Assembly: GCA_026770705.1 (NCBI GenBank)
Contig: JANJGN010000385.1
Location: 310,001-374,000 of the forward strand
Source: Isurus oxyrinchus
Taxonomy: Eukaryota
DNA: 64,000 nt
Direction: 5' to 3'
The position numbers were made by a program, and so were the translations under genes. The notes beneath the pieces are model-generated. The model was not told the DNA's origin. It saw only the letters and a program-made list of their open reading frames with translations, and made no database searches. This document shows, one piece after another, positions 2,246 through 59,678 of the stretch; positions within the stretch are counted from its first letter, which is position 1; each line of letters begins with the position of its first letter.

Positions 2246-2386
2246 CCAGTACCTGTCCGACTGCTCGCCTGGGGAGGAACTGCCCACACGCTCTGCTTGG
2301 GCTGAATGACCTCTTCCTGTGCTGCTCCCTCTGTGTGTTTAATTAGAAAGGGTGGATGTGTCACTGTGAGACAAAATGAGGAAGTG
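2246..2386 (-). promoter_or_regulatory. Gene E non-coding 5' exon plus conserved upstream ETS/PU.1-like block
   Basis: Conserved in all 5 genes and ends in a strong donor TGG|gtaagt. GAGGAAGTG at 2378-2386. Confidence 0.55.
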
Positions 2387-4939: not shown

Positions 4940-5079
4940 TCAAACAGTCTGTCGACTTCCTTTCACTGTTTGTTCCTCCCAGACACAGACTCCAGCGATA
5001 GTGATAACCACAGCCACAAGGAATATCACAGCTCGTATTCCCAGGATCAGGATCACGTGCAGAATCTCTCCTCCACTGT
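4940..5079 (-). CDS. Gene A terminal exon: transmembrane segment with intramembrane Arg and short tail (activating type)
   Basis: Acceptor ttctctag|, phase 1. Reads SGGEILHVILILGIRAVIFLVAVVITIAGVCVWEEQTVKGSRQTV* with no Tyr. Not in the ORF track. Confidence 0.8.
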
Positions 5080-6761
5080 CTAGAGAACACACAGAAAGAA
5101 ATCATCACTGACTCTCCGCTTTCAATCTCTCACTCTGGCTGAACAATCAAGCTTCATATCACTGCAACATTTGCTGTAATATTGAACCATCCACTGGGAT
5201 TCAATGTGGAATGAATGTTTTCATTGTAAACACTCTAAGAGTGGACAATCGGAACTTTCCCCTTAGCGTGGAACATTGGTGAGAATGGATCATTGTGCTG
5301 TTGGACTCCCTGTCCAATGTTTCTCTCCATCGCTGTGTACAGGATTGTGCTGTAGAAAATTCTGGAAACGTTTTGTGAAGGATGGAAATCCATCTCGGAC
5401 GCGTGTGCGAATCGGGCAGGATCGAGATGGACTCCCCCATGGACTTACACCCCCCGCTTAATAAACAGTTCCAATCTTTACCCAGAGAGAGGGGAGAATG
5501 TGGAACTCGCTCCCACTGGGAGGGGTTGAGGTGAACAGTATCGATGTATTTACGGGGCAGGAGGGTCAGTAACCAGAGGGACACAGATTGACGAACTGGA
5601 GGGGGAGATGAGGAGAATTTGTTTTGACAGAGCAAGTTGTTGTGATCTGGAAGGTGCTGCCTGAAAGGGCGGTGGAAGCAGATTCAATAGGAACTTTCAA
5701 AAGGGGAATTGGATAAACACTTGAAGGAGGAAGATGGGGTAAAGTGGAGTGATGGTTAGTGGATCTGATGGGATAGAACATTGAAAGACCTGGCACAGGC
5801 ACAATGGGCTGAATGGCCTCCTCCTGTGCTGTATCATTCTCCGCTTCCATGATCTCTCCCCCAGTCAGTAACCACTCCAGATCCCTCTTGAAGGCAACAG
5901 AGAAACAGCAACCACCACACCCACAGACAGCACATTCTCGAGGATCACTGCTCTCTGGGAAAAGATGAACTCCCCAACATCCAGCCTATTCCTGCTTCCC
6001 GGAGAGTGTAAACCCTTCAGGGAGGCGCTGAGGAAGTTTTCAATAAAATGACATCAAATCTATCGTTTGAGAAATAATTGAATTCCGATGAACTCACAGC
6101 TTGTGAGGCAAACTGGGAAGTGGATTTGCTTGAAAAGCTGAGAGATGCAAGGGTTAAGTTCTACTGTGCACCACTGGTGGTACAGTGTAACTACAGCGTG
6201 ACGTTTACATAGGCAATCCCTATTATAAACAAGGACATTGGACATCAGGTGAAATAAGGGCAGTGGAAAAGTGAGAACATGATGTAAGCTTTTCACCAAC
6301 AGGAATTCCCTTCCTAAACCTCTCCACCTCTCTCTTACTCTCAGATACTCAAACAAAATTTCACACAGATTCACGTAAGGAGGAGTTGGGACAATTGACT
6401 GGTCAAAGGGTTAGGTTTCAGGAAGCTTCTTAAAGTAGGATAGAGAGTTGGAGAGACAGAGAGTATCTGTGAGTGTCTCTATGCATCTGAGTGTCTGTAA
6501 TAGACTTTGCAATTTCCATATTCTTCCATAAACATGAAAGGGAACAGAAATCTCAGAATCCAGGTCAACTCTCCGGTGCAGCACTGAGGGAGGTCAGGTA
6601 ACCCGCTGGGGAGTATTGTGCTAGTGTGTTTGTTTGTGTCTTTGTGTGTGCTCATATACGAGGGATTGTGTATCTGCAGGTGTCTATTTAGGTCTGTATA
6701 TTTGTGTGTGTTTGTGTCATGTTTCAATCTGAGACAGATGATGAAATCTGTGTGCACTCAC

Positions 6762-6914
6762 ATTCCACAGTGATGGTTATGAATCCCTCCACTGCTCCAT
6801 GTTCATTCTCTGCCAAACACTGATAGTCTCCAGTGTCCCTGGATTTAACGTGAGGAATCACCAACCACAGCTCATTGTTGGAACTTGTTCTGTTCATTGT
6901 GATATTCAGATGTC
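6762..6914 (-). pseudogene. Gene A C2b exon remnant (3' half only, acceptor lost)
   Basis: Homologous to the 3' half of the intact exon at 61850-62131 (NRTSSNNELWLVIP...DTGDYQC..ENEHGAVEGFITITVE), donor retained. The 5' half is replaced by ~190 bp of unrelated sequence. Confidence 0.8.
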
Positions 6915-8250: not shown

Positions 8251-8619
8251 CAGAAACGTGAAGCCGGGTTACAGGGTAATAGTTATGGCTCGGACCATTG
8301 TCAAATTCTATTCTGAAAAAATAAGGTCCCGCATCTTCTCATCTGATGTTGTCTATGATCAAGGAACAGTCGCCATCTTTCAGGTCTCCAGACAGCCGGG
8401 TCCGATGGCAGAACCGTGGTAACTCGTGACTGTGATCCTTGGAGTGAAAGTCAATGGGAGCCCAGGGAATCTGTTTCTCATTATTAAACCAGACTCCACC
8501 TCGCGGTTGGTTTTCCAGACACGATGGATAACTGAAATGACATGGAATCTGTACACACGAACCTTCCTGTGCTGTCACCTCTCGTGGAGTGTCACCTTTC
8601 CACTCTTGTGACAGTCCAA
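8251..8619 (-). pseudogene. Gene A second V-set exon (V2) with in-frame stop
   Basis: 369 nt with splice sites intact. TGA at 8339-8341 (NIR*EDAGPYFFR), where the paralog at 41715 has TGG. Confidence 0.85.
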
Positions 8620-8684
8620 CTGGGGAGAGAAATATCAATATTTAACTCTGGATGGTTTGTGGATCCACTGAACCCGATATTTAC

Positions 8685-11530: not shown

Positions 11531-11794
11531 ACAGTGTGAAGGGTGGAAGGTGTAGTGGGGAGGAGACACGTCACTCAGGGGGGAGGTGTCATCACCCCTC
11601 AGCTCGGTTTACCTTACAGCTATGATGTGGATTCAATCACACACAATAAGCTCATGGATCTGGGAGCAGAAATAGACAAATCATTAAAAATAGTGACGCT
11701 GGTTAACACGGCCAAAAAACAAGCAAATCAAACACTATTATTTCCCATTGAGTGTTGAATGTGAATTGTTGAGTAATTATAACACAGCACTTAC

Positions 11795-12172
11795 CAGAAA
11801 CGTGAAGCTGGGTTACAGGGTAATAGTTATGGCTCGGACCATTGTCAAATTCTATTCTGAAAAAATAAGGTCCTGCATCTTCCCGTCTGATGTTGTTTAT
11901 AATCAGGGAACAGTCGCCATCTTTCAGGTCTCCAGACAGCCGGGTCCGATGGTCGAACCGTGGTAACTCGCGACTGTGATCCTTGGAGTGAAAGGCTATA
12001 GACCATTTAAACCATTTGTTCTGTCTGTCCCTCCTCATATACCAGATTCCGACATGTGTTTTCTTTACCAAATGTGATGGGTAACTGTGATGACATGGAA
12101 TCTGTACACACGAACCTTCCTGCGCTGTCATCTCTCGTGGAGAGTCACCTTTCCACTCTTGTGACAGTACAA
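11795..12172 (-). CDS. Gene A first V-set exon (V1), Siglec-type
   Basis: 378 nt, open, phase 1-1. CVQIPC...VGIWY...GDLKDGDCSLIINNIRREDAGPYFFRIE, essential Arg present. Confidence 0.9.
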
Positions 12173-12802
12173 CTGGGGAGAGAAATATCAATATTTAACT
12201 CTGGATGGTTTGTAGATCCACTAGACTCGATATCCACCCCCTCCATCACTGTGGCACAGTGGCTGCAGTGTGGACCATCTGCAGGACACACAAGGAAGTC
12301 CACAAGGTATCACAATGGATGGAAGAGAATCCTGGACACAGGAGTGGACAAGTTCATTCTACATTGGCTCATGGTCCTCAGGACCCTGTTTGTGCACAAG
12401 CCTTGCTATCCAACAGAACTGAAGTTGGGGAAAATCCATTTAGAATTCCACTGTCCTGGGAATTGTCCTAACTTGCTGAGTTTGTTTTAAATCTAACATC
12501 TATTTTTGGTCTGTTGCCTTAAAAGGAGTGTAACTGGGAGTCAGGTTAATTAGGAATTTTAGGAGTTATTATAGCTGTCATTGTAGTCTTATGTATGTGC
12601 TTGAAATCTTTTATTTTGATGACAAATATTTTAATTTATTTTTTTAAATCTCTAAAGGTCTTGGTGTAATTATTGCTTCTGAATTCAGTGCACACATCTC
12701 ATAATAAATACAAATTGCAAATTCATTATGATCGTGTGACCACCTTTCTCTCATGGACTTGGTCTGCCTGGCACACATCACCTGCCAAGTGATAACACTG
12801 TT

Positions 12803-14112
12803 GTAATATGCCTTTCAGGGATAGCAGCATGACATCACTCAAGGGGAAGTGTGTCATGTGATTTTTCAGAACTGGGCTTGGCTTAAGGAAGTTCTCTGTG
12901 TATTTGTGTGTGTTAGGCATAACGTATATCTGTAAGTTGAAGTTTAGTTTGTATTTCTGTATTTGGGTGTTTTGAAAAGGGGGAACATGAGTTTTGGTTT
13001 CACTTTGGAAGAAGCCGCCTGTCTAATGAGTTTTTATGACTCTTGAAGGGAAGTCAAAACAAACACAAGGTAGAAGAAACTGTGCTGTTGCCTAGTAACA
13101 GTGATCCAGAGGGAAAGACCCACAGAGACCGAGAAAAACAGAAAAATACTTTCAGTTCTGTTGAAAGGAGTTGCCAGGAGAAGCAGCAAAGGAGCGGGAC
13201 AGATAGTCAGTCCCAAAGTAAAGATGAAGCCAAAACCATCGAGTGGAACAGGAGAATGGGCCCAAGAAAACCTTCTAGTCAAATCTGGGAAAGGCCCTGT
13301 TAAGTGAAGTTAAGAGTGAGGAACAGAAGAAGGCTCCAAACATAAAGGGAGAAAGCAGCAGGACACAGACCTAAAGCAAAATAGGCTTGCGAGAAGCCAG
13401 AAGATCCTAGGAGACACCACAGGTTGGTGACTCATTACTACGGCCATGTGAAGCCATGGTGTTCCATTGACACGGCTGAGCATTGGAGAGACAGGGCGTG
13501 GAAGGAAGGCTGAATGCACGTGGCGATCCAGGGGGCAGGAACATGGGAAGGAGAGTTTGAAATAGTGAAAGTGGACCCTTGTGGAAGGTGTCTGAGTGAA
13601 AGTGTCATGTTGGAGAAGATTCCAAAGCGAGTTCTTGGAGAGTGGAGATTGGAAACCCTCATATGGATATCTCAGTTCAGTGAGACTGGTTGGCTCACAG
13701 TGTAACAAGCGTCTGGGGTCTGATGAGGAGGGAGACATAGCATTTGTTCCAAGTGGGTTCTGTCAGTTTCTTTCAGAATGTGGTGTCCCTGACCCCAGGT
13801 CGTCTATTGGTTTACATCGACTGTGCACTTAGTGTGAACATGAGAGTATAAGATAGCTATTGTAACTTGTGTTCTACTTATGAATCTGCAAAGGTATAGG
13901 TCTGGGTGAAGGAGTAATGTAATATAGTTTGTCGTTCCTAGTTTAATAAATGTTTTATTCTTTAGTTAGAAGTTCATCAGATGACTCCTGTGACTCTGTT
14001 CAGTAGCCGCACTCCACATTCAAAAATAAAAAATAAAAGTTAGGACCTATCAAGCTGAGTTCCACCCTGGTATCTGACTTGCCCAGTAGTAACATCAGCT
14101 GGGATGATAACA
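12803..14112 (+). mobile_element. Putative solo LTR
   Basis: TGTAAT...GATAACA termini, AATAAA near the 3' end, non-coding. Mirrored at ~36070-37375. No clear TSD. Confidence 0.45.
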
Positions 14113-19673: not shown

Positions 19674-19814
19674 CCAGGACCTGTCCGACTGCTTGCCTGG
19701 GGAGGAACTGCCCACACGCTCTGCTTGGGCTGAATGACCTCTTCCTGTGCTGCTGCCTCTGTGTATTTAATGAGAAAGGGTTGATGTGTCACTTTGAGAC
19801 AAAATGAGGAAGTT
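19674..19814 (-). promoter_or_regulatory. Gene A non-coding 5' exon and ETS-like block
   Basis: Paralog of 2246-2386. Donor TGG|gtaagt, GAGGAAGT at ~19806. Confidence 0.55.
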
Positions 19815-24272: not shown

Positions 24273-24413
24273 CACTTCCTCATTTTGACTCACAGTGACA
24301 CATGCACCCTTTTTAATTAAACACAAATAGGGAGCAGCACAGGAAGAGGTCATTCAGCCCAAGCAGAGCGTGTGGGCAGTTCCTCCCCAGGCGAGCAGTC
24401 GGACAGGTGCTGG
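24273..24413 (+). promoter_or_regulatory. Gene B non-coding 5' exon and ETS-like block
   Basis: CACTTCCTCATTTTG...TGG|gtaagt. Confidence 0.55.
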
Positions 24414-26454
24414 GTAAGTAACGGAACGATTGGAATTCACTTCCACCACCAACACTGTCCTTTGTTGATGTTGTGACTTTATAAAGACAGATTCCAATGA
24501 TTGATGCCTTTGAAAGATTTTTACTGATTATTGAATTCTGGGTGTGAGACTCAAGTCTGTTGTACAGAACATCTTTCTAGCTCAAGGGATGAGGGAACTG
24601 CAGAGACATGAGCTTTGGGATGTCCTGAGATAGTGAAAGGTGCTATAGAAATGCAAATCAATCATTGTTTGTCTTACTTAAAGACTTGTAACTCTCTGCA
24701 GAGCACCTATCATCCCACAGAGAATCAAATTAGTCTATGAAGACATTGTCTAAAAGCAGTTCTGATCTCTCGAGAGCTGTCGGACAAGAGGTGAGGTCTC
24801 ATTAACTCCTTTCTCTTTCACAGTTTGAGAGTGAGAAGTGGATGGAATATCTGGGAGTGGACGATGATCGGGAAATCTTACTTCCTCCTGTAACTTCTCC
24901 AAGGTAATATCATCGTCAGCTTGGACAGATTTATGTTTAGCAGTCTTTGTAAAAGATCATTCTTATCTCTTTATCTCTGTAACCTCCTGCAACTCACCCA
25001 AACAACTTCCCAGATCTCTGTGTTACTCCAATTCCGGCCTCTTGACCATCCCCCGATTCCCATCACTCCAATACTGGCGGCCGGGCCTTCAGCTGCCTGG
25101 GGCCTGAGCTCTGGAATTCACTCCCTAAACCTCGGGATGGAGGAGATCAGAGGGTTTCATTTTACTGAGAATCACCACGACCACATCACAGCTGCAGTGA
25201 GAATAGACAGAGAGTCCAGCCCTCACACTTCCTGCACAGTTTCACCATAGCAACCACAATATGGAAATTTAAAAATACTGAAAGTTAAACTGAAGCTCAA
25301 ACCAGTCAGTGTAGAGAGATGAGATGTTTACACAGTTTCCCTGTGTATCTTGTAGACTCTGTGTTGGGTGGAAGACTGGCTTCACTAAACAGGGTCCTGA
25401 GGACCATGAGCCAATGTAGAATGAACTTGTCCACTCCTGTGTCCAGGATTCTCTTCCCTCCATTGTGAAACCTTGGGGAGTTCCTTGTGTGTCCTGTAGA
25501 TGGTCCACACTGCAGCCACTGTGCCCCAGTGATGGAGGGGGTGGATATCGAGTCTAGTGGATCTACAAACCTTCCAGAGTTAAATATTGACATTTCTCTC
25601 CATAGTTGGACTGTCACAAGATTGAAAAGGCGACACTTCACGAGAGGTGACAGCGCAGGATGGTTCGTGTGTACAGATTCCATGTCATTACAGTTACTTA
25701 TCAAATTTCATAGGGAGATCACGTGTCGGAATCTGCTTGAAAGGAATAGATGGGAACCCACAGCCGAAATGGTCTATAGCCTTTCATTCCGAGGGTCACA
25801 GTCACAGGGATCAAAGATTCCACCATCGGACCAGGCTGTCTGGAGACCTGAAAGATGGCGACTGTTCCCTGATTATAAACAACATCAGACGGGAAGATGC
25901 AGGACCTTATTTTTTCAGAATAGAATTTGACAATGGTCCGAGACATAACTATTATCCTGTAACCCAGCTTCACGTTTCTGGTAAGTGCTGTGTTATAATT
26001 ACTCAACAATTCACATTCAACACTCAATGGGAGATAACACAAACTGTGACGTTTACATATTAACACAAAACGCAGCTTATTATAACTTGCTATCTGATTC
26101 TCAATAACCTGGTGATAGCTTCCAGTTCAGTCCTAAAGCAACCTCTAATACTCACTTTAATATCAATGATTAAAAGCATTAACTGAATTATCAGGTTATC
26201 CACTCCCATCAATCTCTCCTGTCCTGTTTAAAAGTCTGATGTATCGATAAAAGAAAGATGTGCATTTCTGTAGCGCAATTTACCACCTCAGGAGGATCCA
26301 AATCCCTTCACAGCCAATGAAATTATTCCTGAATTGTAGTCACAGATGTAAAACACAGCAGGCAGTTTGTGCACAGCAAGATCCAACAAACCACAAGGTG
26401 ATAAATCACCCAGATCACTGAGGAAATGAGAAGCCAGTGAACTCAAACCTCTGG

Positions 26455-26588: not shown

Positions 26589-29283
26589 ACTCCAATCTCT
26601 GGTCTGAGCCTCTTCTCTCATCCAGTGTTCTCAATTCACATGTCTCGGAGTGAACGTGTATTAAGCTGAGAGACAGAAACACTACTGCCAAAGAGCAAGA
26701 AAATCTCTCCTGATCATTGTAACCTCTCAGTTCTGATATCATCCTTGTAAAAGTGCTTTCTCTTGTGGGACTGTGATTTCTATTTGAACTGATGCTTCAC
26801 GTTATATTTCTCTAAAAGGACCCATTCTCTGTCTGTTAGATTTCACAGATAAACCCACGATATTCCCTGCTGAAATTATTGCAGGAAAGCATGTGGATGT
26901 AAGCTGCACCATCAACACAACGTGCAATGGAACAGCAGCGCCTGTCTTAACCTGGGACACTCCCACTGATGTACCTGGATCAGTCTCAAACACTGTAACT
27001 CAGCATGGTGTCACTCTGACCTATACTTCTGTTCTGACCCTGACCCCATCACTCAAACACCACGGACACACTCTCAGCTGCAGAGTGAGATATCCATCTG
27101 TTTCATCGGAGCGGACCCTCGTACTAACTGTGCAAGGTAAGTACATACACCTTTCATTCTACATCAGCACTCCCTCAGCGCTGACCCTCTGACAGTGCAG
27201 CCCGTTCTCAGTGTCCACATTCTCAGACCTCTCAAAGTGCTTCACAGTCGATTGAAGTTAATTGATCTTTATTTGATTATTACTGAATAAAGAGACAAGC
27301 TGTCTAAAGTTTACATCTCGCACACACCATTCTCCATGGCAACACCTCCACCTATCAGAGACCACTTGCCAACCAATCAGCACTCTCTTCCCATTAAGTA
27401 TAAATTGTGGTTCACTTTCTGTTGGTAATCCTGCGAACGGGCTTCTTGATTCCTGCCCTGACATCTTAATGTCCAAATGAACAGAACAAGTTCCAACAAT
27501 GAGCTGTGGTTGGTGATTCCTCCCATTACATATCGGGACACTGGAGACTATCAGTGTGTGGCAGAGAATGAACATGGAGCAGTGGAGGGGTTCATAACCA
27601 TCACTGTGGAACGTGAGTGTACACAGACATCAACATCTCTCTCAGATTCAAACATTGCACAAACACACACAAATATACAGAACTAAATAGACACGTGCAG
27701 ACACACATGTATGAGCAATTACAAAGACACACTCACGAACAAACACACTAGCACACACTGCCCTGTGGCTTACCTGAGTACTGCACTGGAGAGTTGGCCT
27801 GAATTCTGGGATTTGTGTTCCCAATCATGTTTATGGAAGAATATGGAAATTACAAAGTCTATTACAGACACTCAGATGCATAGAGACACTCACAGATACT
27901 CTCTGCCTCTCCAACTCTCTCTCTCCCTTTAAGAAGCTTCCTGAAAGCTAACCCTTCGAACAATCACCGGCCCCAACTCCTCCTTATCTGATTCTGTGTG
28001 ATTTTGTTTGTGTATCTGAGAGTAAGAGAGAAGTGGAGAGGTTTAGTTAGAGAATTCCTGCTGGTGAAAATCTTACATCATTTACTCACCTTTCCAGTGC
28101 ACATATTTCCCAGTATGTCCAATGCCCCTGTTTATAATGATGACTGCCTATGTAAACGTCACGCTGTAGTTACAGTCTCCCACCAGTGGTGGCATTGTAG
28201 CACTTAATCCTTGTGTTTCCCAGCTTTTCAAGCAACTCCACTTCCCAGTTTGCTACACAAGCTGTGAGTTCATCAGAATTAAATTATTTCTCAAATGATA
28301 GATTTGATAATTCATTTTATTGAAAACTTCCTCAGTGCCTCCCTGAAGGGTTTACACTCTCTGGGAAGCAGGAATAGGCTGGATGTTGGGGAGTTCATCT
28401 TTTCCCAGAGAGTAGGGATCCTTGAGAATGTGCTGTCAGTGGGTGTGGTAGTTCCTGTTTCTCTGTCGCCTTCAAGAGGGATCTGGAGTCATTACTGACT
28501 GTGGGAGAGATCATGGAAGCGGAGAATGATACAGCACAGGAGGAGGCCATTCAGCCCACTGTGCCTGTGCCAGGTCTTTCAATGTTCTATCCAATCAGAT
28601 CCACTAACCACCACTCCACTTTACCCCATCTTCCTCCTTCAAGTGTTTATCCAATTTCCCTTTTGAAAGTTCCTATTGAATCTGCTTCCACCGCCCTTTC
28701 AGGCAGCACCTTCCAGATCACAACAACTCGCTCTGTCAAAACAAATTCTCCTCATCTCCCCCTCCAGTTGGTCAATCTGTGTCCCTCTGGTTACCGACCC
28801 TCCTGCCCCTTAAATACATCGATACTGTTCACCTCAACCACTCCCTGTGGGAGTGAGTTCCACATTCTCCCCTCTCTCTGGGTAAAGATTGGAACTGTTT
28901 ATTAAGAGGGGGGTGTAAGTCCGTGGGGGAGTCCATCTCGATTCTGCTCGATTCGCACACGCGTCCGAGATGGATTTCCACCCTGCACTAAACGTTTCCA
29001 GAATTTTCTACAGCACAATCCTGTACACAGCGATGGAGAGTAACATTGGACAGGGAGTCCAACAGCACAATGATCCATTCTCACCAATGTTCCACGCTAA
29101 GGGGAAAGTTCCGATTGTCCACTCTTAGAGTGTTTACAATGAAAACATTCATTCCACATTGAATCCCAGTGGATGGGTCAATATTACAGCAAATGTTGCA
29201 GTGATATGAAGCTTGATTGTTCAGCCAGAGTGAGAGATTGAAAGCGGAGAGTCAGTGATGATTTCTTTCTGTGTGTTCTCTAG

Positions 29284-29423
29284 ACAGTGGAGGAGAGATT
29301 CTGCATGTGATCCTGATCCTGGGAATACGAGCTGTGATATTCCTTGTGGCTGTGGTTATCACTATCACTGGAGTCTGTGTCTGGGAGAGACAAACAGTGA
29401 AAGGAAGTCGACAGACTGTTTGA
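29284..29423 (+). CDS. Gene B TM/terminal exon with intramembrane Arg (open, but in a pseudogene)
   Basis: ttctctag|AC AGT GGA... = SGGEILHVILILGIRAVIFLVAVVITITGVCVWERQTVKGSRQTV*. Confidence 0.75.
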
Positions 29424-32067: not shown

Positions 32068-32208
32068 CACTTCCTCATTTTGTCTCACAGTGACACATCC
32101 ACCCTTTCTAATTAAACACACAGAGGGAGCAGCACAGGAAGAGGTCATTCAGCCCAAGCAGAGCGTGTGGGCAGTTCCTCCCCAGGCGAGCAGTCGGACA
32201 GGTCCTGG
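32068..32208 (+). promoter_or_regulatory. Gene C non-coding 5' exon and ETS/PU.1-like block
   Basis: CACTTCCTCATTTTG at 32068, donor TGG|gtaagt at 32209. Confidence 0.55.
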
Positions 32209-32658
32209 GTAAGTAACGGAACGATTGGAATTCACTTCCACGACCAACACCGTCCTTTGTTGATGTTGTGACTTTATAAAGACAGATTCCAATGATTGAT
32301 GCCTTTGAAAGATTTCTACTGGTTATTGAGATCTGGGTGTGAGACTCAAGTCTGTTGTACAGAACATCTTTCTAGCTCAAGGGATGAGGGAAGTGCAGAG
32401 ACATGAGCTTTGGGACGTCTTGAGGTGGTGAAAGGTGCTATAGAAATGCAAATCCTTTAATGTTTTTCTTTCTTAAAGCCTTGTAACTCTCTGCAGAGCA
32501 CCTATCATCCCACAGAGAATCAAATTAGTCTGTAAAGACATTGTCCAAAAACAGTTCTGATCTCTTGAGAGCTGTCGGACAAGAGGTGAGGTCTCATTAA
32601 CTCCTTTCTCTTTCAGAGTTTGAGAGTCAGAAGCTTATGAAATATTTGGGAGTGGACA

Positions 32659-32698
32659 ATGATCGGGAAATCCTACTTCCTCCTGTCACTTCTCGAAG
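32659..32698 (+). CDS. Gene C leader exon
   Basis: MIGKSYFLLSLLE + G|gtaat. Joined to V1 it gives MIGKSYFLLSLLEVGLS|QEWKG, a plausible signal peptide. Confidence 0.85.
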
Positions 32699-33696: not shown

Positions 33697-36070
33697 ATTT
33701 TCATATTTCTTGACAATTATATAAGTGTATAGATCTGTTGAATATTTGAGTCTCTAAAGCGTAGAGGTAATCTGCTGTTATATCGAGATCTTGTGGTGGC
33801 AAAATTGTCTGGAGGTTTCTTTAATTGCTCACATTGATCTGTGGGATTGTCATTCTTCGATGTTGTCCCTGGTTTCAATTGACATTACACCCTTGATGCA
33901 ACTGAGGAGGCTTTAAACTAATATGGCAGGGGATCGGATCCCGAGAGGAGGTTCAACAGAGAGAGATGCACGGCCAAAATTAGAAGAGAGAGCAAATGAA
34001 ACTGGAAGGCATAGAAATTATTGACCATTTAAGGCTCAAGATAGTGTGGCAAAGTTGGATTGTATTAATTTTAATGCAAGGAGTCTGACAGACTTGCATT
34101 CTCCTGCAGGTGTAATGTTGCAGCTCCCTTGAACCTGCCAATATTGTTGAATCTGTCTGCATATTTCAATGTTATGTCATGAACTGAGCTGATGGGATAG
34201 TTTCTGAGACTGGGACAGACATAAATCCATTGGCTTTCGGCCGGACCGGACAATCATGGAAGTGGGTGGGGCCAGAAAATCCCACCCCTATGGGAACATT
34301 TTCAGTTAATTTGATGTGCCCAGAGAGATCAATAAAGACCACAATCCACAATTTATTGGCAAGCCACGTCAGGATATGTGTGAGAGGTGGAATTTCGATC
34401 ACCGCTCCTAGTCTTGTCGTGTACATCATCGCCATTTCCTGGTTTGTCAGTCACCACATGTATATGTTCCTGATGGGATAGCGGATGGTCATTCTTATTG
34501 CTTGAAGGTTCCCCGTTGTGCAGGGTTTGATTGGATCAGCGCACGGCTCTTTGTAGCTGCATCAGCCTTTGCTCTCGTGCCCTGCCGCTGTCAATGGCCC
34601 TTTCTGCCACAAGCCTTGCAGGATTGGTGGAAAGCTGGGCATTTCCTTGGTGCCTGCAGAAGGCCACACCTTCCACACGTCTCACTAGGTTTGGATGTTC
34701 TAGTGAGTGTGTCAACAATTGATGTTGTACTGAGGACCTGTAAGCTTCGTTGACCTGCGAGGATCACTTCGTATTTATGTCCATCCTTGAGTAGCTCTTC
34801 AATGCTATAGGTTTTGGTCTTATCTAGCAGATCTTTCTGGAAGGCTTCCATGGGAGTGGATGTAATCACCAACTCAACAACTGTGTCTGCAGGCTCTGTG
34901 TTTGAAATCACAGTGCGTACCCTTTTCTCTACATCGGCTGATGAAGTGGTCTATGGATTGTGTAGGCTGATGAAATGACATAAACTCTAGTTGATGAATA
35001 TGGAGTTTCACCTGATTCTGAACCTGTCTTCCAATATCGTCCGTATCTATTGGGGATCTTTTCGCTCTTCTGCTGTTAATCCTGATGTGCTCAGCCTGTG
35101 TAGACCTTCATTCCCAATCGCGAGGTGAATTTTTATGGGTGGCTCGTCTGGTTCAGTCACACCTGAATCAGGAAACCAGAGCTCTGTACGCTGTTTAAAC
35201 ATTCTGAATTCAGATAGTCGGTCAGCTACATCCCAGTTCAAACTGGGGAATTTCGTGGACATTCTGACAATATTCCTTTGACCTTCCTTCTCCTACAGGA
35301 CCTGGGATGAGTGTCGCTTTAGCCCCTTTCGTGTGCTTTTCCGAAGCTCTGCCCACGAAGACGGGTTGTGGCAGGAACACACCACGGAGTAATGGAGTCT
35401 TTGTTTTTTATTCAATTTGCTGTTCAGCAATCTCGAAGCCGCCCGTTATAATCACTAACTTCTCTGGCCTGATTTTTATAATGGTTTTTGTGTGTTTGAC
35501 TCTCCCTCGCTCACTATCGATCCAGCCCACACCCTGGTCACTCGCCTTCCCTGACTGAGCTAACCCGCTGCTGGTCCTGGCGATACACACTGTCCCACTC
35601 ACTGACCTACAGGCCGTGTGCTGTAATCTCACCACGAGGGATCCGTCTGCTCCCCAGCTCTTTACTTGAGCTCTTTCCCGTCACTGTGTCTTCAAAGGTT
35701 TCCTGAGCAGTCAGTACACTGCGATTTCAACCCTCTCTGATGCTGTGTCTCTGTTGTGGTCTGACCAAAGCGTCGAGGGTCGTCTCATGTCATGTAGCTC
35801 GATCTCAGGCTGTTCACCACGTCATACCTGTACTGAATCTTGCTGCCAGAATGTTTTGCCACCACTGATCACCATGTTGTGTTTTTATGATGATATAAAG
35901 GCACCAGCCACTGATACGGAATTGGGTAAATACATTGTGGGTTCAGTTATTTAGAACAGGGACATGAGAACAGATATACAAGGATAGAAAGCTGGGAGAC
36001 ACCTGCAGCCAAACTGTGTGAGCTGTGTTCTGCTCACAGGCCAAAGTGAAACTTGGACTGGATGGTGTTA
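33697..36070 (-). mobile_element. Second copy of the Gypsy relic with internal deletions and a CR1 fragment (~33900-34080)
   Basis: Gag ORFs near-identical to 14908-15579. Lacks the equivalents of ~15965-16470 and ~16600-18020. 33700-34060 mirrors 1-360. Confidence 0.85.
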
Positions 36071-37998
36071 CCATCCCAGCTGATGTTACTACTGGGCAAG
36101 TCAGATCCCAGGGTGGAACTCAGCTTGATCGGTCCTAACTTTTATTTTTTATTTAGGAATGTGGAGTGCGGCTACTGAACAGAGTCACAGGAGTCATCTG
36201 ATGAACGTCTAACAAAAGAATAAAACATTTATTAAACTAGGAAAGACAAACTATATGAAATTACTCCTTCACCCAGACCTATATCTTTGCAGATATATAC
36301 AGATTCACAAAGATAACACAAGTTACAATAACTATCTTATACTATCATGTTCACACTAAGTACACAGTCCATGTAAACCAATAGACGACCTGTGGTCAGG
36401 GACACCACACTCTTCAACCAAGTGACAGAGCCCACTTGAAACAAATGCTATGGTTCTCTCCTCAGCTGTCCCCAGACGCTTGTTGCACTGTGAGCCAACC
36501 AGTCTCACTGAACTGAGATATCCATTTGAGGGTTTCCAATCTCCACTCTCCAAGAACACACTTTGGAATCTTCTCCAACATGACACTTTCACTCAGACAC
36601 CTTCCACAAGGGACCACTTTCACTATTTCAAACTCTCCTTCCCATGTTCCTGTTCCCTGGATCGCCACGTGCATTCAGCCTTCCTTCCACGCCCTGTCTC
36701 TCCAATGCTCAGCCGTGTCAATGGAACACCATGGCTTCACATGGCCGTAGTAATGAGTCACCAACCTGTGGTGTCTCCTAGGATCTTCTGGCTTCTCACA
36801 AGCCTATTTTGCTTTAGGTCTGTGTCCTGCTGCTTCTTCCTTTATGCTTGAAGCCTTTGTCCGCTCCTCACTCTTAACTTCACTTAACAGGGCCTTTTCC
36901 AGATTTGACTAGAAGGTTTTCTTGGACCCTTTCTCCTGTTCCACTCGATAGTTTTGGCTTCTTCTTTACTTTGGGACTGACTATCTGTCCCGCTCCTTTG
37001 CTGCTTCTCCTGGCAACTCCTTTCAACAGAACTGAAAGTACTTTTCTGTTTTTCTCTGTCTCTGTGGGTCTTTCCCTCTGGATCATTGTTGCTAGGCAAC
37101 AGCACAGTTTCTTCTACCTTGTGTTTGTTTTGACTTCCCTTCAACAGACATAAAACCTCAATGGAATGCTGGCTTCTTCTTACGTCAAGTTCCCCCTTTT
37201 CTAAACACCCAAATACAGAAATACAAACTAAACTTGAACTTAAAGATAGACCTTATGCCTAACACACACAAATATGCATCGAACTTACTTAAGCCAACTC
37301 CAGTTCCTAAAAATCACATGACACACTTCCCCTCGAGTGATGTCATGCTGCTGTCCCTGAAAGGCATATTACAACAGTGTTATCACTTGGCAGGTGATGT
37401 GTGCCAGGCAGACCAAGTCCATGAGAGGAACTTGGTCTCACTATCATAATGATTTTGCAATTGGTATTTGTTATGATTGTGCACTGAATTCAGAAGCAAT
37501 AACTCCATCAAGACATTTAGAGATTTAAAACAATAAATTAAAATATTTGTCATCAAAATAAAAGATTTCAAGCACATACATAAGACTACAATGACTGCTA
37601 TAATAACTCCTAAAATTCCTAATTAACCTGACTCCCAGTTACACTTCCTTTAAGGCAACAGACCAAAAATAAATGTTAGATTTAAAACAAACTCAGCAAG
37701 TTAACACAATGCCCTGGACAGTGGAATTCCAAATAGATTTTCCCCAACTTCAGTTCTGTTGCAGAGCAGGTTTGTACACAAACAGGGTCCTGAGGACCAT
37801 GAGCCAATGTAGCATGAATATTTCCGCTTTTGTGTCCAGGATTCTCTTCTATCCATTGTGAAACACTGGGGAGATCCCTGTGTGTCCTGTAGATGGTCCA
37901 CACTGCAGCCACTCTGACCCCGTGAAGGAGGGGGTGGATATCGAGTCTAGTAGATCTACAAACCATCCAGAGTTAAATATTGATATTTCTCTCCCCAG

Positions 37999-38376
37999 TT
38001 GGACTGTCACAAGAGTGGAAAGGTGAAACTCCACGACAGGTGACAGCGCAGGAAGGTTCGTGTGTCCAGATTCCATGTAACTACAGTTATCCAGCACGTG
38101 TAGTACGGAGAGCACGTGTCGGAATCTGGTACGTGAAATGGTACACATGGAATACAAGGTCTAGAGGGACTATAGCTTTTCACTCCAAGGATCACAATCG
38201 CGAGTTAACACGGTTCCGCAATAGGACACGGCTGTCTGGAGACCTGAAAGATGGCGACTGTTCCCTGATTATAAACAACATCAGACGGGAAGATGCACAT
38301 TATTATTATTTCAGAATAGAATTTGACAGCAGCAATAGTTACAGCTACTATCCTGCAACCCAGCTTCACCTTTCTG
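37999..38376 (+). CDS. Gene C V-set exon V1 (sialic-acid-binding Arg present)
   Basis: 378 nt, ccccag|...|gtaagt, open. CVQIPC...DCSL...YYYFRIE. Confidence 0.9.
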
Positions 38377-41300
38377 GTAAGTGCTGTGTTATAATTACTC
38401 AACAATTCACATTCAACACTCAATGGGAAATAATAGTGTTTGATTTGCTTGTTTTTTGGCCGTGTTAACCAGCATCACTATTTTTAATGATTTGTCTATT
38501 TCTGCTCCCAGATCCATGAGCTTATTGTGTGTGATTGAATCCACATCATAGCTGTAACGTAAACCGAGCTGAGGGATGATGACACTTCCCCCCTGAGTGA
38601 AGTGTCTCCTCCCCACTACACCTTCCACCCCTCACACTGTCCGTGTAAACCCCCGTCCCATCTCCAGCCTCTCGTTCCCCTCCAAAGTCCTTGAACGTGT
38701 TTCCATTTCCCGAATCCATTCCCATCTTTCCCGGAACTCCATGTTTGAATCCCTCCAATCAGGTTCCCACCCCAGCCACTGTGCTGAAACAGCTCTTATC
38801 AAGGTCACAAATGGCATCCTGTGTGACTGTGACAAAGGTCAACTTTCCCTCCTCGTCCTTCTCGATCTGTCTGCAGCCTTTGACACGCTCGACCACACCA
38901 TCCTCCTCCAACCCCTCTCCACTGTGGTCCAGCTGGGTGGGACTGCTCTCCCCTGGCTCCATTCTTATCCATCTCATCGTAGCCAGAGAATCACTTGCAA
39001 TGGCTTTGCAGCATCATCTGAACAGTGTTAGTTTTCACCTGTCCACTGAGGATCCCCAGCTCTACCTCACCACCACCTCTCTCGACTCCTCCACTGCTGC
39101 TAAATTATCAGGCTGCTTATCCGACATCCAGTACTGGATGGGCAGAAATTCCCTCCAATTAAATATTGGAAAGACTGAGGCCATTGTCTTCATTCCCCGC
39201 TCCAAACTCTGTTCCCTCGCTACCAACTCCATTCCACTCCCTGGCAGCTCTCTGAGATTGAAGCCAATCTGTTCACAGCTTTGTTGTCCCATTTGATCCT
39301 GAGATGAGCTTCCGGCCTCATATCTGCACCCTCACTAACACCGTCTATTTCCACCTGCGTAACATCGCACGACGTCACCCTGTCTCAGCTCATCTGCTGC
39401 TGAAACCCTCATCCACGCCTTCATTACCTCCAGACTCGACTGTTCCAACACACGCTCTACACTCCATAAACTTGAGGCCATCCAAAACTGCTGACCACAT
39501 CCTTACTCACACCAAGTCCCGTTCCCTTATCACCCACTCTGCTCGATGACCGAGACTGGCTCCTGGTCAAGCAAAGTCGCAATGTCCAAATTTTCATCTT
39601 TGTTTCCGCACTATCCCTGTAATCTCCTCATCCTCCTACAGTACCTACAACACTCCCTATCTCTGTAACCTCTTCAATTGTCTACAACCATCCCATTCTC
39701 TGTTACCTCTTCAAGCTCCTATCACTTCCCTATAGCTGTAAATTCATCCTGCCCAACAAACCTACCAATCTCTGCAACCTCCTCCAGCCACTACAACCCT
39801 CCCTATTTCTGTAACTTCCTCCTGCCCCTAAAAGCTTCCCTATCTCTGTAGCCTGCTCCAGTCCCGACAACTTTCCCTGCCCCTGTAACCTGCCCCAGTC
39901 ACTACAACCTTCCTTCTCTCTGTAACCTCCTCCAGCCCCTCCAACCCTCTGAGGTCTCTGTGCTCATCCAATTCCAGCCTCTTGACCATCCGCCGATCCC
40001 ATCACTCCAACATCAGCGTCCATGCCTTCAGCTGCCTGGGGCCCGAGCTCTGTAATACCCTCCCTCAACCCCTCTCCATCCCTCTCTCTCACTCTCTCTA
40101 TCTCTCTCTCTCTGTCTCTTTGTCTCTTTCTCTCTGTCTCTCCACAACACCGAACTCTTCTGGTCAGCTGTTCCTAATATCTCCACACGTGTCTGGGTGA
40201 CATACTTTGTTTTATGACGCTCCTGTGTAGCACCTTGGGGTGATTTGTCATGTTCAAGTTGTTGTGTAAATATAAGTTGTTGCCCTTTGACCCTTGACCC
40301 CAGCTTGAGTCTTATTTTTGACGGAATGTACATCCTCCTTAGATTTCTGACCAAAATGTCATTTGATTATTTTTATTGAGCGAATGCCAAGCCCCGATAC
40401 CGAGCGAGAGCCTCCTCATTTGCTGAGTTTAAGGTGATGAGTCAGCCCCTTAGTCTGTAGAGGGGATTCTCCTCGGTAATGTGCAGCCTTGTTTGTGTCT
40501 CTCCACAAGCGCATGAGGGGTTTGTACAGAGGCTGCAGCGCTGGAGGGGGTCTGCACAGGGGTCCTGGCCTGTCCTGAGCCGGTTTTAGCAAGGTCCACT
40601 CTGGCCTTGGCAGCTGAAAGCCAGCCATTGGACAGACGGGGCCTGTCACAAGGAGCCTGTTAGTCACTACCCCCCCCGTGTCTCCTGTGCTCGGATCCAG
40701 ACCATGTTGGCTGGTGGATCTGGCTCAGGAAGGGTCCTCCCCATGGGACCCCCTGATGGAAGGTGGGTCGAGCGGGTCAGTCACTTGCATGTTTATTCTG
40801 CAGCTTTAATATTTTAAGAAGGTAAGAATGTAGGAACATAAGAAATAGGGACAGGAGCAGGCCATTCGGCCCCTTGAGCCTGCTCTCACTGATCTGGTTG
40901 TGGCCTTAACTCCATTTTCCTGCCTGACACAAACCCTTGACTCCCTTGTCGATCAAAAACCTGCCTCACTCAGCCTTGAGTCTATTCAATGGCCCAGCCT
41001 CCACTGCTCTCTGGGGAAGAGAATTCCACAGGCTAGCACCCCTCTGAGAGAGGAAATTCCTCCTCATCTCAGTCTTAAATGGGAGAGCCCTCATTCCGAA
41101 ACTGTGCTCCCTGGTTCTAGATTCCCCCACGAGGGGGAAACATCCTCCCAGCATCCACCCTGTCAAGCCCCCTCGGAATCGGATATGTTTCAATAAGGTC
41201 ACCACTCATTCTTCTAAACTCCAATGGATACAGGCCCAACCTGCTCAACATTTCCTCACAGGACAAACCCCTTAATCCCAGGAATCAGCCCAGTGAACCT

Positions 41301-41714: not shown

Positions 41715-42083
41715 ATGAACCCTCACAAGAGTGGAGAGGTGACATTCCACGAGAGGTGACAGCGCAGGAAGGTTCGTGTGTACAGATTCCATGTCATTAC
41801 AGTTATCCATCGTGTCTGGAAAACCAACCGCGAGGTGGAGTCTGGTTTAATAATGAGAAACAGATTCCCTGGGCTCCCATTGCCTTTCACTCCAAGGATC
41901 ACAGTCACGAGTTACCACGGTTCCGCCATCGGACCCGGCTGTCTGGAGACCTGAAAGATGGCGACTGTTCCCTGATTATAAACAACATCAGATGGGAAGA
42001 TGCAGGACCTTATTTTTTCAAGATAGAATTTGACAATGGTCCGAGCCATAACTATTACCCTGTAACCCAGCTTTACGTTTCTG
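41715..42083 (+). CDS. Gene C V-set exon V2 (essential Arg->Lys, extra Cys)
   Basis: 369 nt, open, phase 1-1. Begins (D)EPSQEW, contains YPSCLE and YFFKIE. Confidence 0.85.
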
Positions 42084-42896: not shown

Positions 42897-43193
42897 ATTT
42901 CACAGATAAACCCACGATATTCCCTGCTGAAATTATTGCAGGAAAGCGTGTGGATGTAAGCTGCACCTTCAACACAACGTGCAATGGAACAGCAGCACCT
43001 GTCTTAACCTGGGACACTCCCACTGACGTGCCTGGATCAGTCTCAAACACTGTAACTCAGCATGGTGTCACTCTGACCTATACTTCTGTTCTGACCCTGA
43101 CCCCATCACTCAAACACCACGGACACACTCTCAGCTGCAGAGTGAGATATCCATCTGTTTCATCAGAGCGGACCCTCGTACTAACTGTACAAT
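42897..43193 (+). CDS. Gene C C2a exon
   Basis: 297 nt, open, ttag|...T|gtaagt. Confidence 0.9.
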
Positions 43194-43390: not shown

Positions 43391-43457
43391 GACTATCAGT
43401 GTGTGGCAGAGAATGAACATGGAGCAGTGGAGGGGTTCATAACCATCACTGTGGAAT
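43391..43457 (+). pseudogene. Gene C C2b exon remnant (last ~67 nt only)
   Basis: DYQCVAENEHGAVEGFITITVE + donor. The breakpoint differs from genes A/B. Confidence 0.8.
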
Positions 43458-45803: not shown

Positions 45804-46097
45804 ATAAGCCGGAGATTTCCCAGCAGTCGGAGTGCACTCGGAGATCAGAGGGGGTCACCTGCGTCTGTGTGGCCACCTCCAACCCACCGGGAGACCTCAC
45901 CTGGCACCTGCCCAGTGCCAACATCAGTGGTAACCAAACACACGGAGATTTTGTGTCGTGGCAGGTCAGAGATGGGCATCTGGTGACTGGTTCCCTCACT
46001 CTGATGAGACCCCAGGATGAGGGGGGAGTGATTGCATCCTGCTCGGTTCAAAACCCACACGGGGAAGCCATGTTCAAGGTGTATCTGTGGGTCAAAG
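45804..46097 (+). CDS. Gene C membrane-proximal C2 exon (C2c)
   Basis: 294 nt, phase 1-1. KPEISQQSECTRRSEGVTCVCVATSNPPGDLTW...SCSVQNPHGEAMFKVYLWVK. The C-x8-CxC pattern resembles MAG domain 5 and the last domain of Siglec-5/10/11. Confidence 0.85.
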
Positions 46098-47236: not shown

Positions 47237-47333
47237 GTAGAGACTCCAGTAAATGGACAGTAGGATTGTTCACGGCTGGGATCATGTTGAGTGTTTTCCT
47301 GGCTGGAATCTTCATCTTCATCTGTGTGAGAAA
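47237..47333 (+). CDS. Gene C transmembrane exon (uncharged)
   Basis: ttacag|...AA|gtaagt. RDSSKWTVGLFTAGIMLSVFLAGIFIFICVRK, homologous to 63383-63479. Confidence 0.85.
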
Positions 47334-48056: not shown

Positions 48057-48138
48057 GAGAAAGACAGCGATGGAGGAGAGAGTTTCAGGGACCAGTGACA
48101 TTGTATTGACTCCCAGTCCACTCTCTGTGAAGCACCAG
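48057..48138 (+). CDS. Gene C cytoplasmic exon 1
   Basis: ttgcag|, phase 2-0, links TM and last exon in frame: RKTAMEERVSGTSDIVLTPSPLSVKHQ|gtacag. Confidence 0.7.
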
Positions 48139-48273
48139 GTACAGGAGCTGTTTACACTCACTCCAAAGCTTCAATCTCAGTGTGTAGACAACACATGTCC
48201 CAGATTCCCAGCCCAGTTACCCACTGATTTGTACCTGTGGAGTCAGCAATGGTTCAGTATCATGCTGTCTCTC

Positions 48274-49025
48274 TATTATGACACAGCAACTGGTAAAGGC
48301 TGTTGTTTAAAATCCGAGAGGAAACTTTAAACAACTGTCATAACCTATATTTCCCAGTGGAATGTTTGAGATGCAGCTCTAAATTCAGGAATAAGAGCAC
48401 CAGTTCTCGACATCGGTGTTATATCAAACTACATGAGACATTTATTAATTTACACAAGTTAAACATATGCACATGGCTACAAGCGAGTATTATCATAACT
48501 TTTTAACAAATTCCCAAACTAATCTCCTCTAAGATAACCCATAGAATTTAAGCAGACACCCAGGCAAAGCATTTTCACCTCACAAATTCCAAATGAGGTT
48601 CCTTTCACTTTGGTTCCTTTGCAGACAGGTGTAGGCTTACAGCTGCTTTGATGTTACAAGCCTCTGCTCTGCACACACAAAACTGCTCAAGTTATACCCA
48701 GTGCTTCTCTTTGAATGTAAATTCTCATTGTATCATCAGGACCTTTGATCTCCATCTCTTCTAACAATAAATCCTCTGTCATAGTATCAATTTTATCAAC
48801 AAAATAAATGTTGATTGGTTTAAGATTTCACTCTCAGGCTTTGAATACTCTGTTTAAAAATACAAATTTTTATCTCTCAGTTTACATCTCAACACTACTA
48901 TACATCAAATACCCAGACTGGCTGGCTTTAATCCAATTAAAACACACACAGACACACCCACAGACTAAACCTCTTCTTAAATAGACAATTTCCAATTACA
49001 TTACATACATTAAAAGATTCATAAC
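48274..49025. mobile_element. Solo LTR-like element
   Basis: T.TTATGA...TCATAACA inverted termini. Clearly related to 53818-54645. Confidence 0.6.
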
Positions 49026-49043
49026 ACTCTGTCTCTGTCCCTT

Positions 49044-49075
<32 letters not shown>

Positions 49076-49164
49076 ATCCTCTCTGATTACAAGATTCATG
49101 TTATTGAGCCTCAGACCAGGCACCTGAGTGCAGAAACCAAGCCGTCACTCACCAGAGCCATTAC

Positions 49165-49412
49165 CGAGGGAGTGCGGGACTGACAGTGGGTCAGCACTGA
49201 GGGAGTGCCGCACTGTCGGAGGGTCAGTACTGAGGGAGTGCTGCATTGTCGGAGGGTCAGTACTGAGGGAGTGCTGCACTGACAGAGGGTCAGTACTGAG
49301 GGAGTGCCGCACTGTCGGAGGGTCAGTACTGAGGGAGTGCTGCACTGTCGGAGGGTCAGTACTGAGGAAGTACTGCACTATCAGAGGGTCAGTACTGAGG
49401 GAGCACTGCACT
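49165..49412 (+). repeat. 33-bp minisatellite amplified inside a SINE-like body
   Basis: Units followed by GGTGGTTTCTTTCAGATGA...TTAAACC, resembling my recollection of the DeuSINE core. Confidence 0.75.
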
Positions 49413-49556
49413 GCCATAGGTGGTTTCTTTCAGATGACATGAGGGAGGATTAAACCCACTGAGCCACGACTGACACTAACGACGCTGCACAATAATTTAA
49501 CCCTATCAGTGCCAGTAAATGATGTGAGGATGTCTTCTGTTTCCATTTCTCTGTAG

Positions 49557-49805
49557 GGTAAACAGAACGTGCTGATTACTGAGCCCCGGAACACAACCAG
49601 AGATACAACTAGCGAGGGGGAGACCCCAGCTCCCCGGGGACTTTCTGAATGTGCAGTGGGAGGTGATGCTGGACATGGGAACCCTGAGAATCCCGCGGAC
49701 TTTCTCTACGCCAATCCCCAAGTCTTCAGGGTGCCCAGTGGTGATGGGTCTGTCCACAGGGAAGAGGAGACGGAATACGCACAGATCAGATTCAAGCGAA
49801 ACTGA
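49557..49805 (+). CDS. Gene C terminal cytoplasmic exon with degenerate ITIM (FLYANP) and ITSM (TEYAQI)
   Basis: ctgtag|, phase 0. ...NPADFLYANPQVFRVPSGDGSVHREEETEYAQIRFKRN*, the two-Tyr layout of CD33-related Siglecs. Confidence 0.85.
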   Translation, partial: GKQNVLITEPRNTTRDTTSEGETPAPRGLSECAVGGDAGHGNPENPADFLYANPQVFRVPSGDGSVHREEETEYAQIRFKRN

Positions 49806-55161: not shown

Positions 55162-55302
55162 AACTTCCTCATTTTGGCTCACAGTGACGCATCAGCCTTT
55201 TCTAATTTAATACACAGATGGATCAGCACAGGATGAGGTCATTCAGCCCAAGCAGAGCGTGTGGGCAGTTCCTCCCCAGGCGAGCAGTCGGACAGGTCCT
55301 GG
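55162..55302 (+). promoter_or_regulatory. Gene D non-coding 5' exon and ETS-like block
   Basis: AACTTCCTCATTTTG...TGG|gtaagt. Confidence 0.55.
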
Positions 55303-59090: not shown

Positions 59091-59312
59091 ACTAAATAGA
59101 GTCCTGAGGACCAGGAGCCAAGGTAGAATGAACTTGTCCACTCCTGTGTCCAGGATTCTCATCGATCCATTGTGAAACCTTGGGGAGTTACTTGTGTGTC
59201 CTGTAGATGGTCCAAACTGCAGCCACTGTGCCCCAGTGATGGAGGGAGTGGATATCAAGAATTATGGATCGAAAAAACATCCAGAGTTAAATATTGATTT
59301 TTCTCTCCCCAG

Positions 59313-59678
59313 TTGGACTGTCACAAGAGTGGAAAGGTGATACTCCACGAGAGGTGACAGCGCAGGAAGGTTCGTGTGTACAGATTCCATGTCATTACAG
59401 TTATCCAGCACATTTGGAAAGCCAACCACGAGGTGGAGTCTGGTTTAATAATGAGGAACGGAGAAGATTGTCCATAGCCTTTCACTCCAAGGATCACCGT
59501 CACGAGTTACCACGGTTCCGCCATCGGACCCGGCTGTCTGGAGACCTGAAAGATGGTGACTGTTCCCTGATTATAAACAACATCAGACGGGAAGATGCAG
59601 GACCTTATTTTTTCAGAATAGAATTTGACAATGGTCCGCGCTATAACTATTACCCTGTAACCCGGCTTCACATTTCTG
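59313..59678 (+). CDS. Gene D V-set exon (Arg present)
   Basis: 366 nt, open. CVQIPC...GGVWF...DCSL...YFFRIE. Confidence 0.9.

What the first reader, a model, noticed from the sequence alone, without database searches (positions are those of the whole stretch)
38090..38360. CDR-like hypervariability confined to ligand-facing loops of the V domains
Seen: frameworks are almost invariant in all six V exons (TAQEGSCVQIPC; RTRLSGDLKDGDCSLIINNIR). The B-C and C-C' segments differ radically: A-V1 HLVKKTH/MRRDRQNKWFKWS, C-V1 RVVRRAR/VKWYTWNTRSRGT, B NFIGRSR/KGIDGNPQPKWS, D HLESQPR/NNEERRRLS. F-G also differs in C-V1 (DSSNSYS versus DNGPSHN). The introns and dead transposons around A-V1 and C-V1 look more alike than these loops. 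Known: the C-C' loop sets Siglec glycan specificity. Inferred: strong diversifying selection or patchy gene conversion.
Basis: partly seen in the sequence, partly recalled or inferred. Interest (0 to 1): 0.7.

Follow-up and report, generated by a model that had tools for sequence, protein, structure and literature searches.

The report
Shark Siglec mega-cluster shuffling binding loops
This shark genome assembly holds hundreds of near-identical copies of a Siglec-type immune receptor gene that differ mostly in their predicted sugar-binding loops, likely because copies overwrite each other's scaffold DNA while old, distinct loop versions are kept and swapped between copies.

Summary
Observation confirmed. 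Between V exons A-V1 and C-V1 the three loops differ at 37 of 93 bases, against 27 of 282 in framework and 2-11% in flanking introns. The exons belong to a very large shark Siglec-like cluster: 548 exact copies of a V-framework word and 560 transmembrane exons of three signalling types in this assembly; some may be haplotype duplicates. 'Strong diversifying selection' is not shown: loop dN/dS is 0.7-1.5 and never significantly above 1 (best p=0.057). Gene conversion is well supported: PHI 0 of 2000 permutations, discordant segment trees, clean mosaics. Loop types are shared with other sharks, while frameworks group by shark order. Best reading: conversion homogenises scaffolds, old loop lineages persist as divergence peaks, likely under selection, and are reshuffled. 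Part of the B-C contrast is structural: a cysteine marking internal V domains. Sialic-acid binding is untested. The scan noted this family's paired tails and B-C cysteine before on other DNA; nine paper searches found no description of the expansion.

The parts
37999..38376 (+). C-V1 exon: N-terminal V-set domain of gene C, WNT loop class, open frame
   Evidence: AG/GT ends
38091..38117 (+). B-C loop of C-V1
38133..38171 (+). C-C' loop of C-V1; a 9-nt unit occurs in one to three in-frame copies among paralogs
38313..38315 (+). F-strand Arg aligned with the sialic-acid-binding Arg of sialoadhesin
38325..38351 (+). F-G loop and start of G strand (S-S-N-S-Y cassette type)
32617..32698 (+). gene C leader exon (approximate start)
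   Evidence: tblastn; leader-to-V splice in contigs of X2 and X5
41715..42083 (+). C-V2 exon: internal V domain, B-C loop Cys, Lys in place of the essential Arg
42897..43193 (+). gene C first C2-set exon
45804..46097 (+). gene C membrane-proximal Ig exon
47237..47333 (+). gene C uncharged transmembrane exon (ITIM-type class)
   Evidence: GT..AG joints
48057..49805 (+). gene C cytoplasmic exons (48057-48138, 49557-49805) with two tyrosine motifs: the distal one ITIM-like, the proximal one non-canonical
11796..12173 (-). A-V1 exon, KK loop class, open frame
8252..8620 (-). A-V2 exon, internal type, premature stop
4943..5080 (-). gene A transmembrane exon with intramembrane Arg and short tail
25605..25979 (+). 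gene B V exon, premature stop (the leader also has a stop): pseudogene
29283..29420 (+). gene B Arg-type transmembrane exon
59312..59677 (+). gene D single V exon, short C-C' class; lies in a roughly 1.4 kb tract that differs from the otherwise collinear copy on C52
63382..63480 (+). gene D transmembrane exon of the third class (tail with YxN motifs lies past the window end)
34206..39939 (+). 5.7 kb block duplicated in inverted form at 10269-15963 (93.4%), holding V1 of an ITIM-type gene and of an Arg-TM gene

Best explanation
The loops are peaks of old divergence inside a very large shark Siglec-like receptor cluster whose copies exchange DNA, and they likely persist because selection keeps different ligand-binding surfaces while conversion makes the scaffold uniform. 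Shown: hundreds of V exons and three classes of membrane/tail exon; about 2% divergence in C2 and D-E sequence against 35-50% in loops between classes; intragenic recombination and mosaics that pair one class's B-C/C-C' with another's F-G; loop classes shared with other sharks; spliced family transcripts. Inferred: that the domains bind sialylated glycans through the F-strand Arg, with C-C' and F-G/G setting preference; that Arg-TM copies activate and ITIM-type copies inhibit, so swapped V exons would re-wire ligand to signal; that selection, not only reduced pairing of diverged DNA, protects the loops.
For: Contrast. Family size: 548 exact V words; 227 + 225 + 108 TM exons. Recombination: PHI-type test 0 of 2000 permutations in all three sets and 0 of 20 false positives in no-recombination simulations with 4x faster loops; AU test rejects each segment's tree on the other; 15 of 103 exons are mosaics at nominal p<1e-4, 2 after Bonferroni; exon-sized swapped tract at gene D. 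Age: framework distance is 0.171 within an order across loop classes against 0.224 across orders within a class, and F-G type follows C-C' class in four shark groups; KK-, WNT- and VARS-like loops occur in Carcharodon and Cetorhinus proteins. Silent tree length is 0.31 in D-E against 0.8-2.6 in loops. Fold: sialoadhesin, TM-score 0.83-0.86. Precedent for divergence peaks under conversion: PMC3924837 passages.
Against: Selection is not demonstrated at codon level. Diverged DNA can resist conversion without selection. The loop tree also groups by order (13 changes against a shuffled minimum of 20), and the B-C loop shows no cross-order class signal (0.39 either way). The 5' framework also has long silent trees (0.99-1.33), so the peak is broader than the loops. 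25 of 109 systematically sampled V places are broken or partial and 17 of 94 in-frame ones lack a called Arg. No binding or signalling data exist.
Confidence: 0.65

Rival explanations
1. Rapid point-mutation diversifying selection on loop codons made the loops diverge since a recent duplication.
For: B-C and C-C' changes between A-V1 and C-V1 are mostly amino-acid changing (20.5 nonsynonymous against 3.5 synonymous). Omega is 1.50 against 0.42 in the 5' segment of the long-loop group. M2a beats M1a at p=0.031 and 0.044.
Against: No loop test is significant (p 0.057-0.72). Only 1 of 3 top sites in the long-loop group is in a loop. Recombination inflates such site tests (own knowledge). The loop classes predate this species.
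Confidence: 0.17
2. Neutral mosaic: loops are relaxed surface sequence, and old variants survive because diverged DNA pairs poorly during conversion in a birth-and-death array; no selection for diversity is needed.
For: Omega near 1 in loops; many broken copies (25 of 109); Arg lost in whole subgroups.
Against: Loop length changes among the open exons are in frame. The same loop classes are kept in open frames across families and, for two classes, across orders. Conversion demonstrably carries loop cassettes.
Confidence: 0.13
3. The array serves as a donor pool for somatic, antibody-like diversification (somatic conversion or mutually exclusive V-exon choice).
For: Tandem V exons of one phase, up to seven in a row; many pseudogene V exons.
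Against: Most V exons sit in genes with their own leader and tail. A V-to-V splice joint shows tandem V exons used together. Internal V domains carry a position-specific Cys (34 of 35). There is no direct evidence of somatic change.
Confidence: 0.04

Closest known systems
Primate CD33-related Siglecs, with the paired Siglec-11/16 (PMC5701461, abstract and outline; PMC6288428, passages)
   Same: V-set plus C2-set layout, F-strand Arg, fast-evolving first domain, inhibitory and activating members linked by gene conversion, loss of the Arg in some copies.
   Different: There, conversion makes the paired V domains alike; here the scaffold is alike and the loops stay different. Humans have 15 Siglecs and teleosts regularly four (PMC7226832 abstract), against hundreds of gene ends here. 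The activating-type anchor has Arg, and a third tail class with YxN motifs exists. Orthology was not tested.
Sialoadhesin (Siglec-1) and MAG (Siglec-4) V domains
   Same: Best sequence match (E 1.8e-15) and best fold matches; A-strand Trp and F-strand Arg align.
   Different: Those are single conserved genes; the C-C' loop here is longer and rich in basic and aromatic residues in the lamniform classes.
Divergence peaks under conversion: red/green opsin exon 5 (PMC3924837, passages); bovine CEACAM32 (PMC7042247, abstract and outline)
   Same: Low divergence in introns and scaffold, a peak at the functional sites.
   Different: Those are two-gene or one-gene cases with known or proposed function; here hundreds of copies, several peaks per exon, and cassettes recombined among copies.
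Primate Siglec-12 (two V-set domains; recalled, and the name is used by database annotation)
   Same: Tandem V domains.
   Different: Up to seven V exons in a row here, with a B-C Cys specific to internal domains.

Membership tests
Siglec | N-terminal V-set domain with the Siglec fold | tested here: met
   Pfam V-set and Ig_CD22; model pLDDT 87, top PDB hits MAG and sialoadhesin
Siglec | Essential Arg on the F strand | tested here: met
   Present in C-V1 and in 77 of 94 in-frame exons of the systematic sample; Lys in C-V2
Siglec | Aromatic residues on the A and G strands (recalled feature) | tested here: inconclusive
   A-strand Trp in 103 of 103; the G-strand position is Tyr in 41 and His in 61 of 103
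Siglec | B-E cysteine pair, no F-strand Cys, extra Cys for the link to the next domain (recalled feature) | tested here: met
   Cys in 101, 101 and 102 of 103 at the three columns; none on F. The bonds themselves were not observed
Siglec | C2-set domains, single TM, signalling tail | tested here: met
   splice joints
Siglec | Binds sialic acid in an Arg-dependent way | not testable with these tools
   No binding data
CD33-related Siglec subfamily | Orthology and synteny with the mammalian cluster | not tested
   No tree with bony-vertebrate Siglecs; the best hit is sialoadhesin
Paired activating/inhibitory receptors | Similar ectodomains with opposite signalling ends | tested here: met
   Arg-TM 227, ITIM-type 225, YxN-type 108; A and C share 5.7 kb
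Paired activating/inhibitory receptors | Opposite signalling shown, same cells, shared ligand | not testable with these tools
   Gene C's proximal tyrosine motif is non-canonical; relatives have a canonical ITIM
Antibody/TCR CDR-type diversification | dN/dS significantly above 1 confined to the loops | tested here: not met
Antibody/TCR CDR-type diversification | Somatic rearrangement or mutation | not tested
   Needs RNA and DNA of one animal; only assembled contigs were served

The most novel reading that the evidence does not exclude
Lamniform sharks carry a Siglec repertoire more than ten times that of humans: several hundred functional activating, inhibitory and adaptor-type receptors built combinatorially in the germline by shuffling ancient B-C/C-C' and F-G cassettes and whole V exons onto three signalling ends, a diversified innate glycan-sensing system beside antibodies.
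Probability: 0.35. Interest if true: 0.82.

Novelty: new variant of a known kind. Interest (0 to 1): 0.58.

Why it matters
Siglec expansions with paired receptors are described mainly from mammals, and a teleost paper says fish genomes lack inhibitory CD33-related Siglecs (PMC7226832, passage). A shark cluster with hundreds of gene ends would show that a diversified Siglec-type system exists in cartilaginous fish, at a much larger scale. It also offers a natural library for asking how C-C' and F-G loops set glycan specificity on a constant scaffold, and an unusually large test of selection acting against gene conversion.

Tried and rejected
Single-sequence fold was poor (pLDDT 54) and was replaced by an alignment-based model. 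IQ-TREE omega values were not parsed; own likelihood code was used instead. The first exon extraction failed on a pattern error and was redone. Pairwise counting gives pS above 1 in F-G because of multi-hit codons, so that figure is not used as a rate. The loop tree's grouping by C-C' class (2 changes) is circular and is not used as evidence. Run search: no RNA holder listed on record; the laid runs are contigs whose RNA status is a guess, used only for splice joints. 'All copies are haplotype duplicates' is rejected: C52 and C71 share no collinear run longer than 3 gene ends, and C52 repeats runs of 5 within itself; partial haplotype duplication is not excluded. The C25 hit is a 122-base fragment. 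Earlier-finding look-ups by words and by sequence returned nothing. PMC13358205 had no passage on sharks. No complex prediction was sent.

Full report
Observation. Six V exons with the quoted loops are in the window. A-V1 and C-V1 lie in a 5.7 kb inverted duplicate of 93.4% identity, and identity drops at the loops. The three loops differ at 37 of 93 bases and the framework at 27 of 282; intron bins differ 6.1%, 6.1% and 10.7% upstream and 2.3%, 1.7% and 3.7% downstream. Alignment to sialoadhesin and a model of pLDDT 87 whose best matches are MAG and sialoadhesin confirm the loop names and place the Arg at 38313-38315 on the F strand.

What the genes are. All 81 protein hits come from sharks and rays, mostly annotated as Siglec-like, the closest from Carcharodon and Cetorhinus (only proteins of 222-2000 residues were searched). 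Exon mapping over 164 kb gives four genes in the window. A has two V exons, the second with a stop, and an Arg-bearing anchor with a short tail. B is a pseudogene of the same anchor type. C has leader, two V, two further Ig exons, an uncharged anchor and a tail with two tyrosine motifs. D has one V and a third anchor class whose tail carries YxN motifs. Contigs of runs guessed to be RNA show leader-to-V and V-to-V joints and GT..AG joints across gene C's Ig-TM-tail introns; two X1 contigs match C-V1 with 0 and 1 differences over 109 and 119 bases. Paralogs cannot be told apart, so this shows family expression only. That Arg anchors recruit an activating adaptor is recalled knowledge.

Family size. 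A 32-base framework word occurs 548 times (control 0). Anchor patterns with one mismatch give 227, 225 and 108 matches, 153 of them on the 4.17 Mb contig C52. The window's 15.7-60.4 kb is collinear with part of C52 at 95-99%, so this contig may be a haplotype or a recent segmental copy. C52 and the first 2.05 Mb of C71 share no collinear run beyond 3 gene ends, and C52 repeats runs of 5 internally. The haploid number is therefore likely between about 280 and 560 gene ends, broken ones included.

Data set. I fetched 94 of the 100 listed places of the 548, the flanks of the window, and 60 BLAST neighbours of C-V1 and A-V1, which biases the set to those classes. Of 161 V places, 128 were open; 33 were dropped (15 frameshift, 9 stop, 5 splice, 4 partial), leaving 103 distinct coding sequences. 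In the unbiased part, 84 of 109 are open and 77 of 94 in-frame exons keep the Arg. Outputs were cut, and I use only what was shown. The exons fall into about six loop classes with 36 B-C, 36 C-C' and 25 F-G variants in 73 combinations, against 14 D-E variants.

Selection. Counting for the pair gives loop dN/dS 0.47; B-C plus C-C' alone have 20.5 replacement and 3.5 silent differences, on only 14 silent sites. With separate trees per segment, pooled loop omega is 1.25 (p=0.37) in the 47 long-loop exons and 0.74 (p=0.14) in the 56 others. With one silent rate for the 5' segment it is 1.50 against 0.42 in framework (p=0.057 against 1) and 1.22 against 0.45 (p=0.27). Site models are marginal, p=0.031 and 0.044, and the sites they pick are scattered. 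These are my own implementations, not codeml. Loops are less constrained than the 5' framework; strong positive selection is not shown.

Conversion. A PHI-type test gives 0 of 2000 permutations as low as observed in all three sets; 0 of 20 simulations without recombination were significant. Trees of the 5' and 3' segments reject each other. Fifteen of 103 exons are one-breakpoint mosaics at nominal p<1e-4, two after Bonferroni; the clearest joins a WNT-class 5' part (47 of 48 sites) to another class's F-G end (15 of 15). Gene D differs from its collinear C52 copy by up to 15% over about 1.4 kb around the V exon, in a background mostly of 0-4%. C2 exons differ 1.9% among 34 copies and D-E 2.6% between classes, while loops differ 34-51%.

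Age of the loops. KK-, WNT- and VARS-like loops occur in Carcharodon and Cetorhinus proteins and in no other order among the hits; PWAP and short classes occur across shark orders. Among 53 of 116 domains in those two classes (63 left out), framework distance is 0.171 within an order across classes and 0.224 across orders within a class; the framework tree needs 9 order changes (shuffled minimum 21) and 11 class changes (shuffled minimum 11). F-G type follows C-C' class in most domains of each group. Against this, the loop tree also groups by order and B-C shows no cross-order class signal.

A structural part. A B-C loop Cys is in 34 of 35 exons with another V upstream and 3 of 27 first exons, and in 30 of 38 internal against 4 of 64 first domains of other species. 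It likely accepts the inter-domain disulfide, so V1-versus-V2 differences in B-C are not purely about ligand.

Mechanism. Unequal exchange and conversion keep scaffold, introns and C2 exons alike; old loop lineages remain as divergence peaks and are moved as cassettes or whole exons onto different signalling ends. A review describes such peaks as a sign of selection against conversion (PMC3924837, passages). That C-C' sets specificity comes from a modelling paper on Siglec-8/9/3 (PMC10477811, abstract and passages). Binding, signalling and the role of selection are inferred.

Known and new. Fast first-domain evolution and conversion in paired Siglecs are known (PMC6288428 passages; PMC5701461 abstract). 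Nine searches, five of them aimed at sharks or fishes, returned no description of this expansion; the whale shark paper mentions Siglecs once (PMC8455134 passages). The library lacks most subscription papers and I read no supplements, where gene-family tables could list it. Automated annotation already names relatives. Earlier notes of this scan cover the paired tails, Arg anchor, B-C Cys and Arg loss on other pieces of this genome. Verdict: a real feature, a new variant of a known kind; interest 0.58, mostly for scale and cassette shuffling.

Noticed in passing
G000:C52:1871383-1886935 (L085, L086) and 602800-614477: Arrays of five to seven tandem V exons about 2.3 kb apart behind one long-loop V; several are near-identical.
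   Followed up: partly
window 38133-38171 and paralogs L004-L030, L062: C-C' length varies by in-frame copies of a 9-base unit (one, two or three); the longer form appears in contigs of X1 and X2.
   Followed up: partly
window 2246-2326, 19674-19754, 24333-24413, 32128-32208, 55219-55302: A copy of the first cytoplasmic exon of the YxN class sits about 400-500 bases upstream of nearly every leader exon, perhaps reused as a 5' untranslated exon or promoter element.
   Followed up: no
G000 whole cluster: Arg-type and ITIM-type anchors occur almost one to one (227 and 225).
   Followed up: no
L093 (C385 399-405 kb): An ITIM-type gene repeats its two cytoplasmic exons in tandem; Carcharodon proteins P0021 and P0033 show the same doubling.
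   Followed up: no
KK and VARS class exons, e.g. L042, L078: Subgroups replace the essential Arg by Thr or Ser in open frames while gaining basic and aromatic C-C' loops, which suggests another ligand.
   Followed up: partly
window 6763-6912, 27462-27611, 43391-43456: Truncated remnants of a C2 exon lie in introns of genes A, B and C.
   Followed up: no
G000:C34:15134620: A single match to the YxN-class anchor pattern on a large contig outside the cluster contigs.
   Followed up: no
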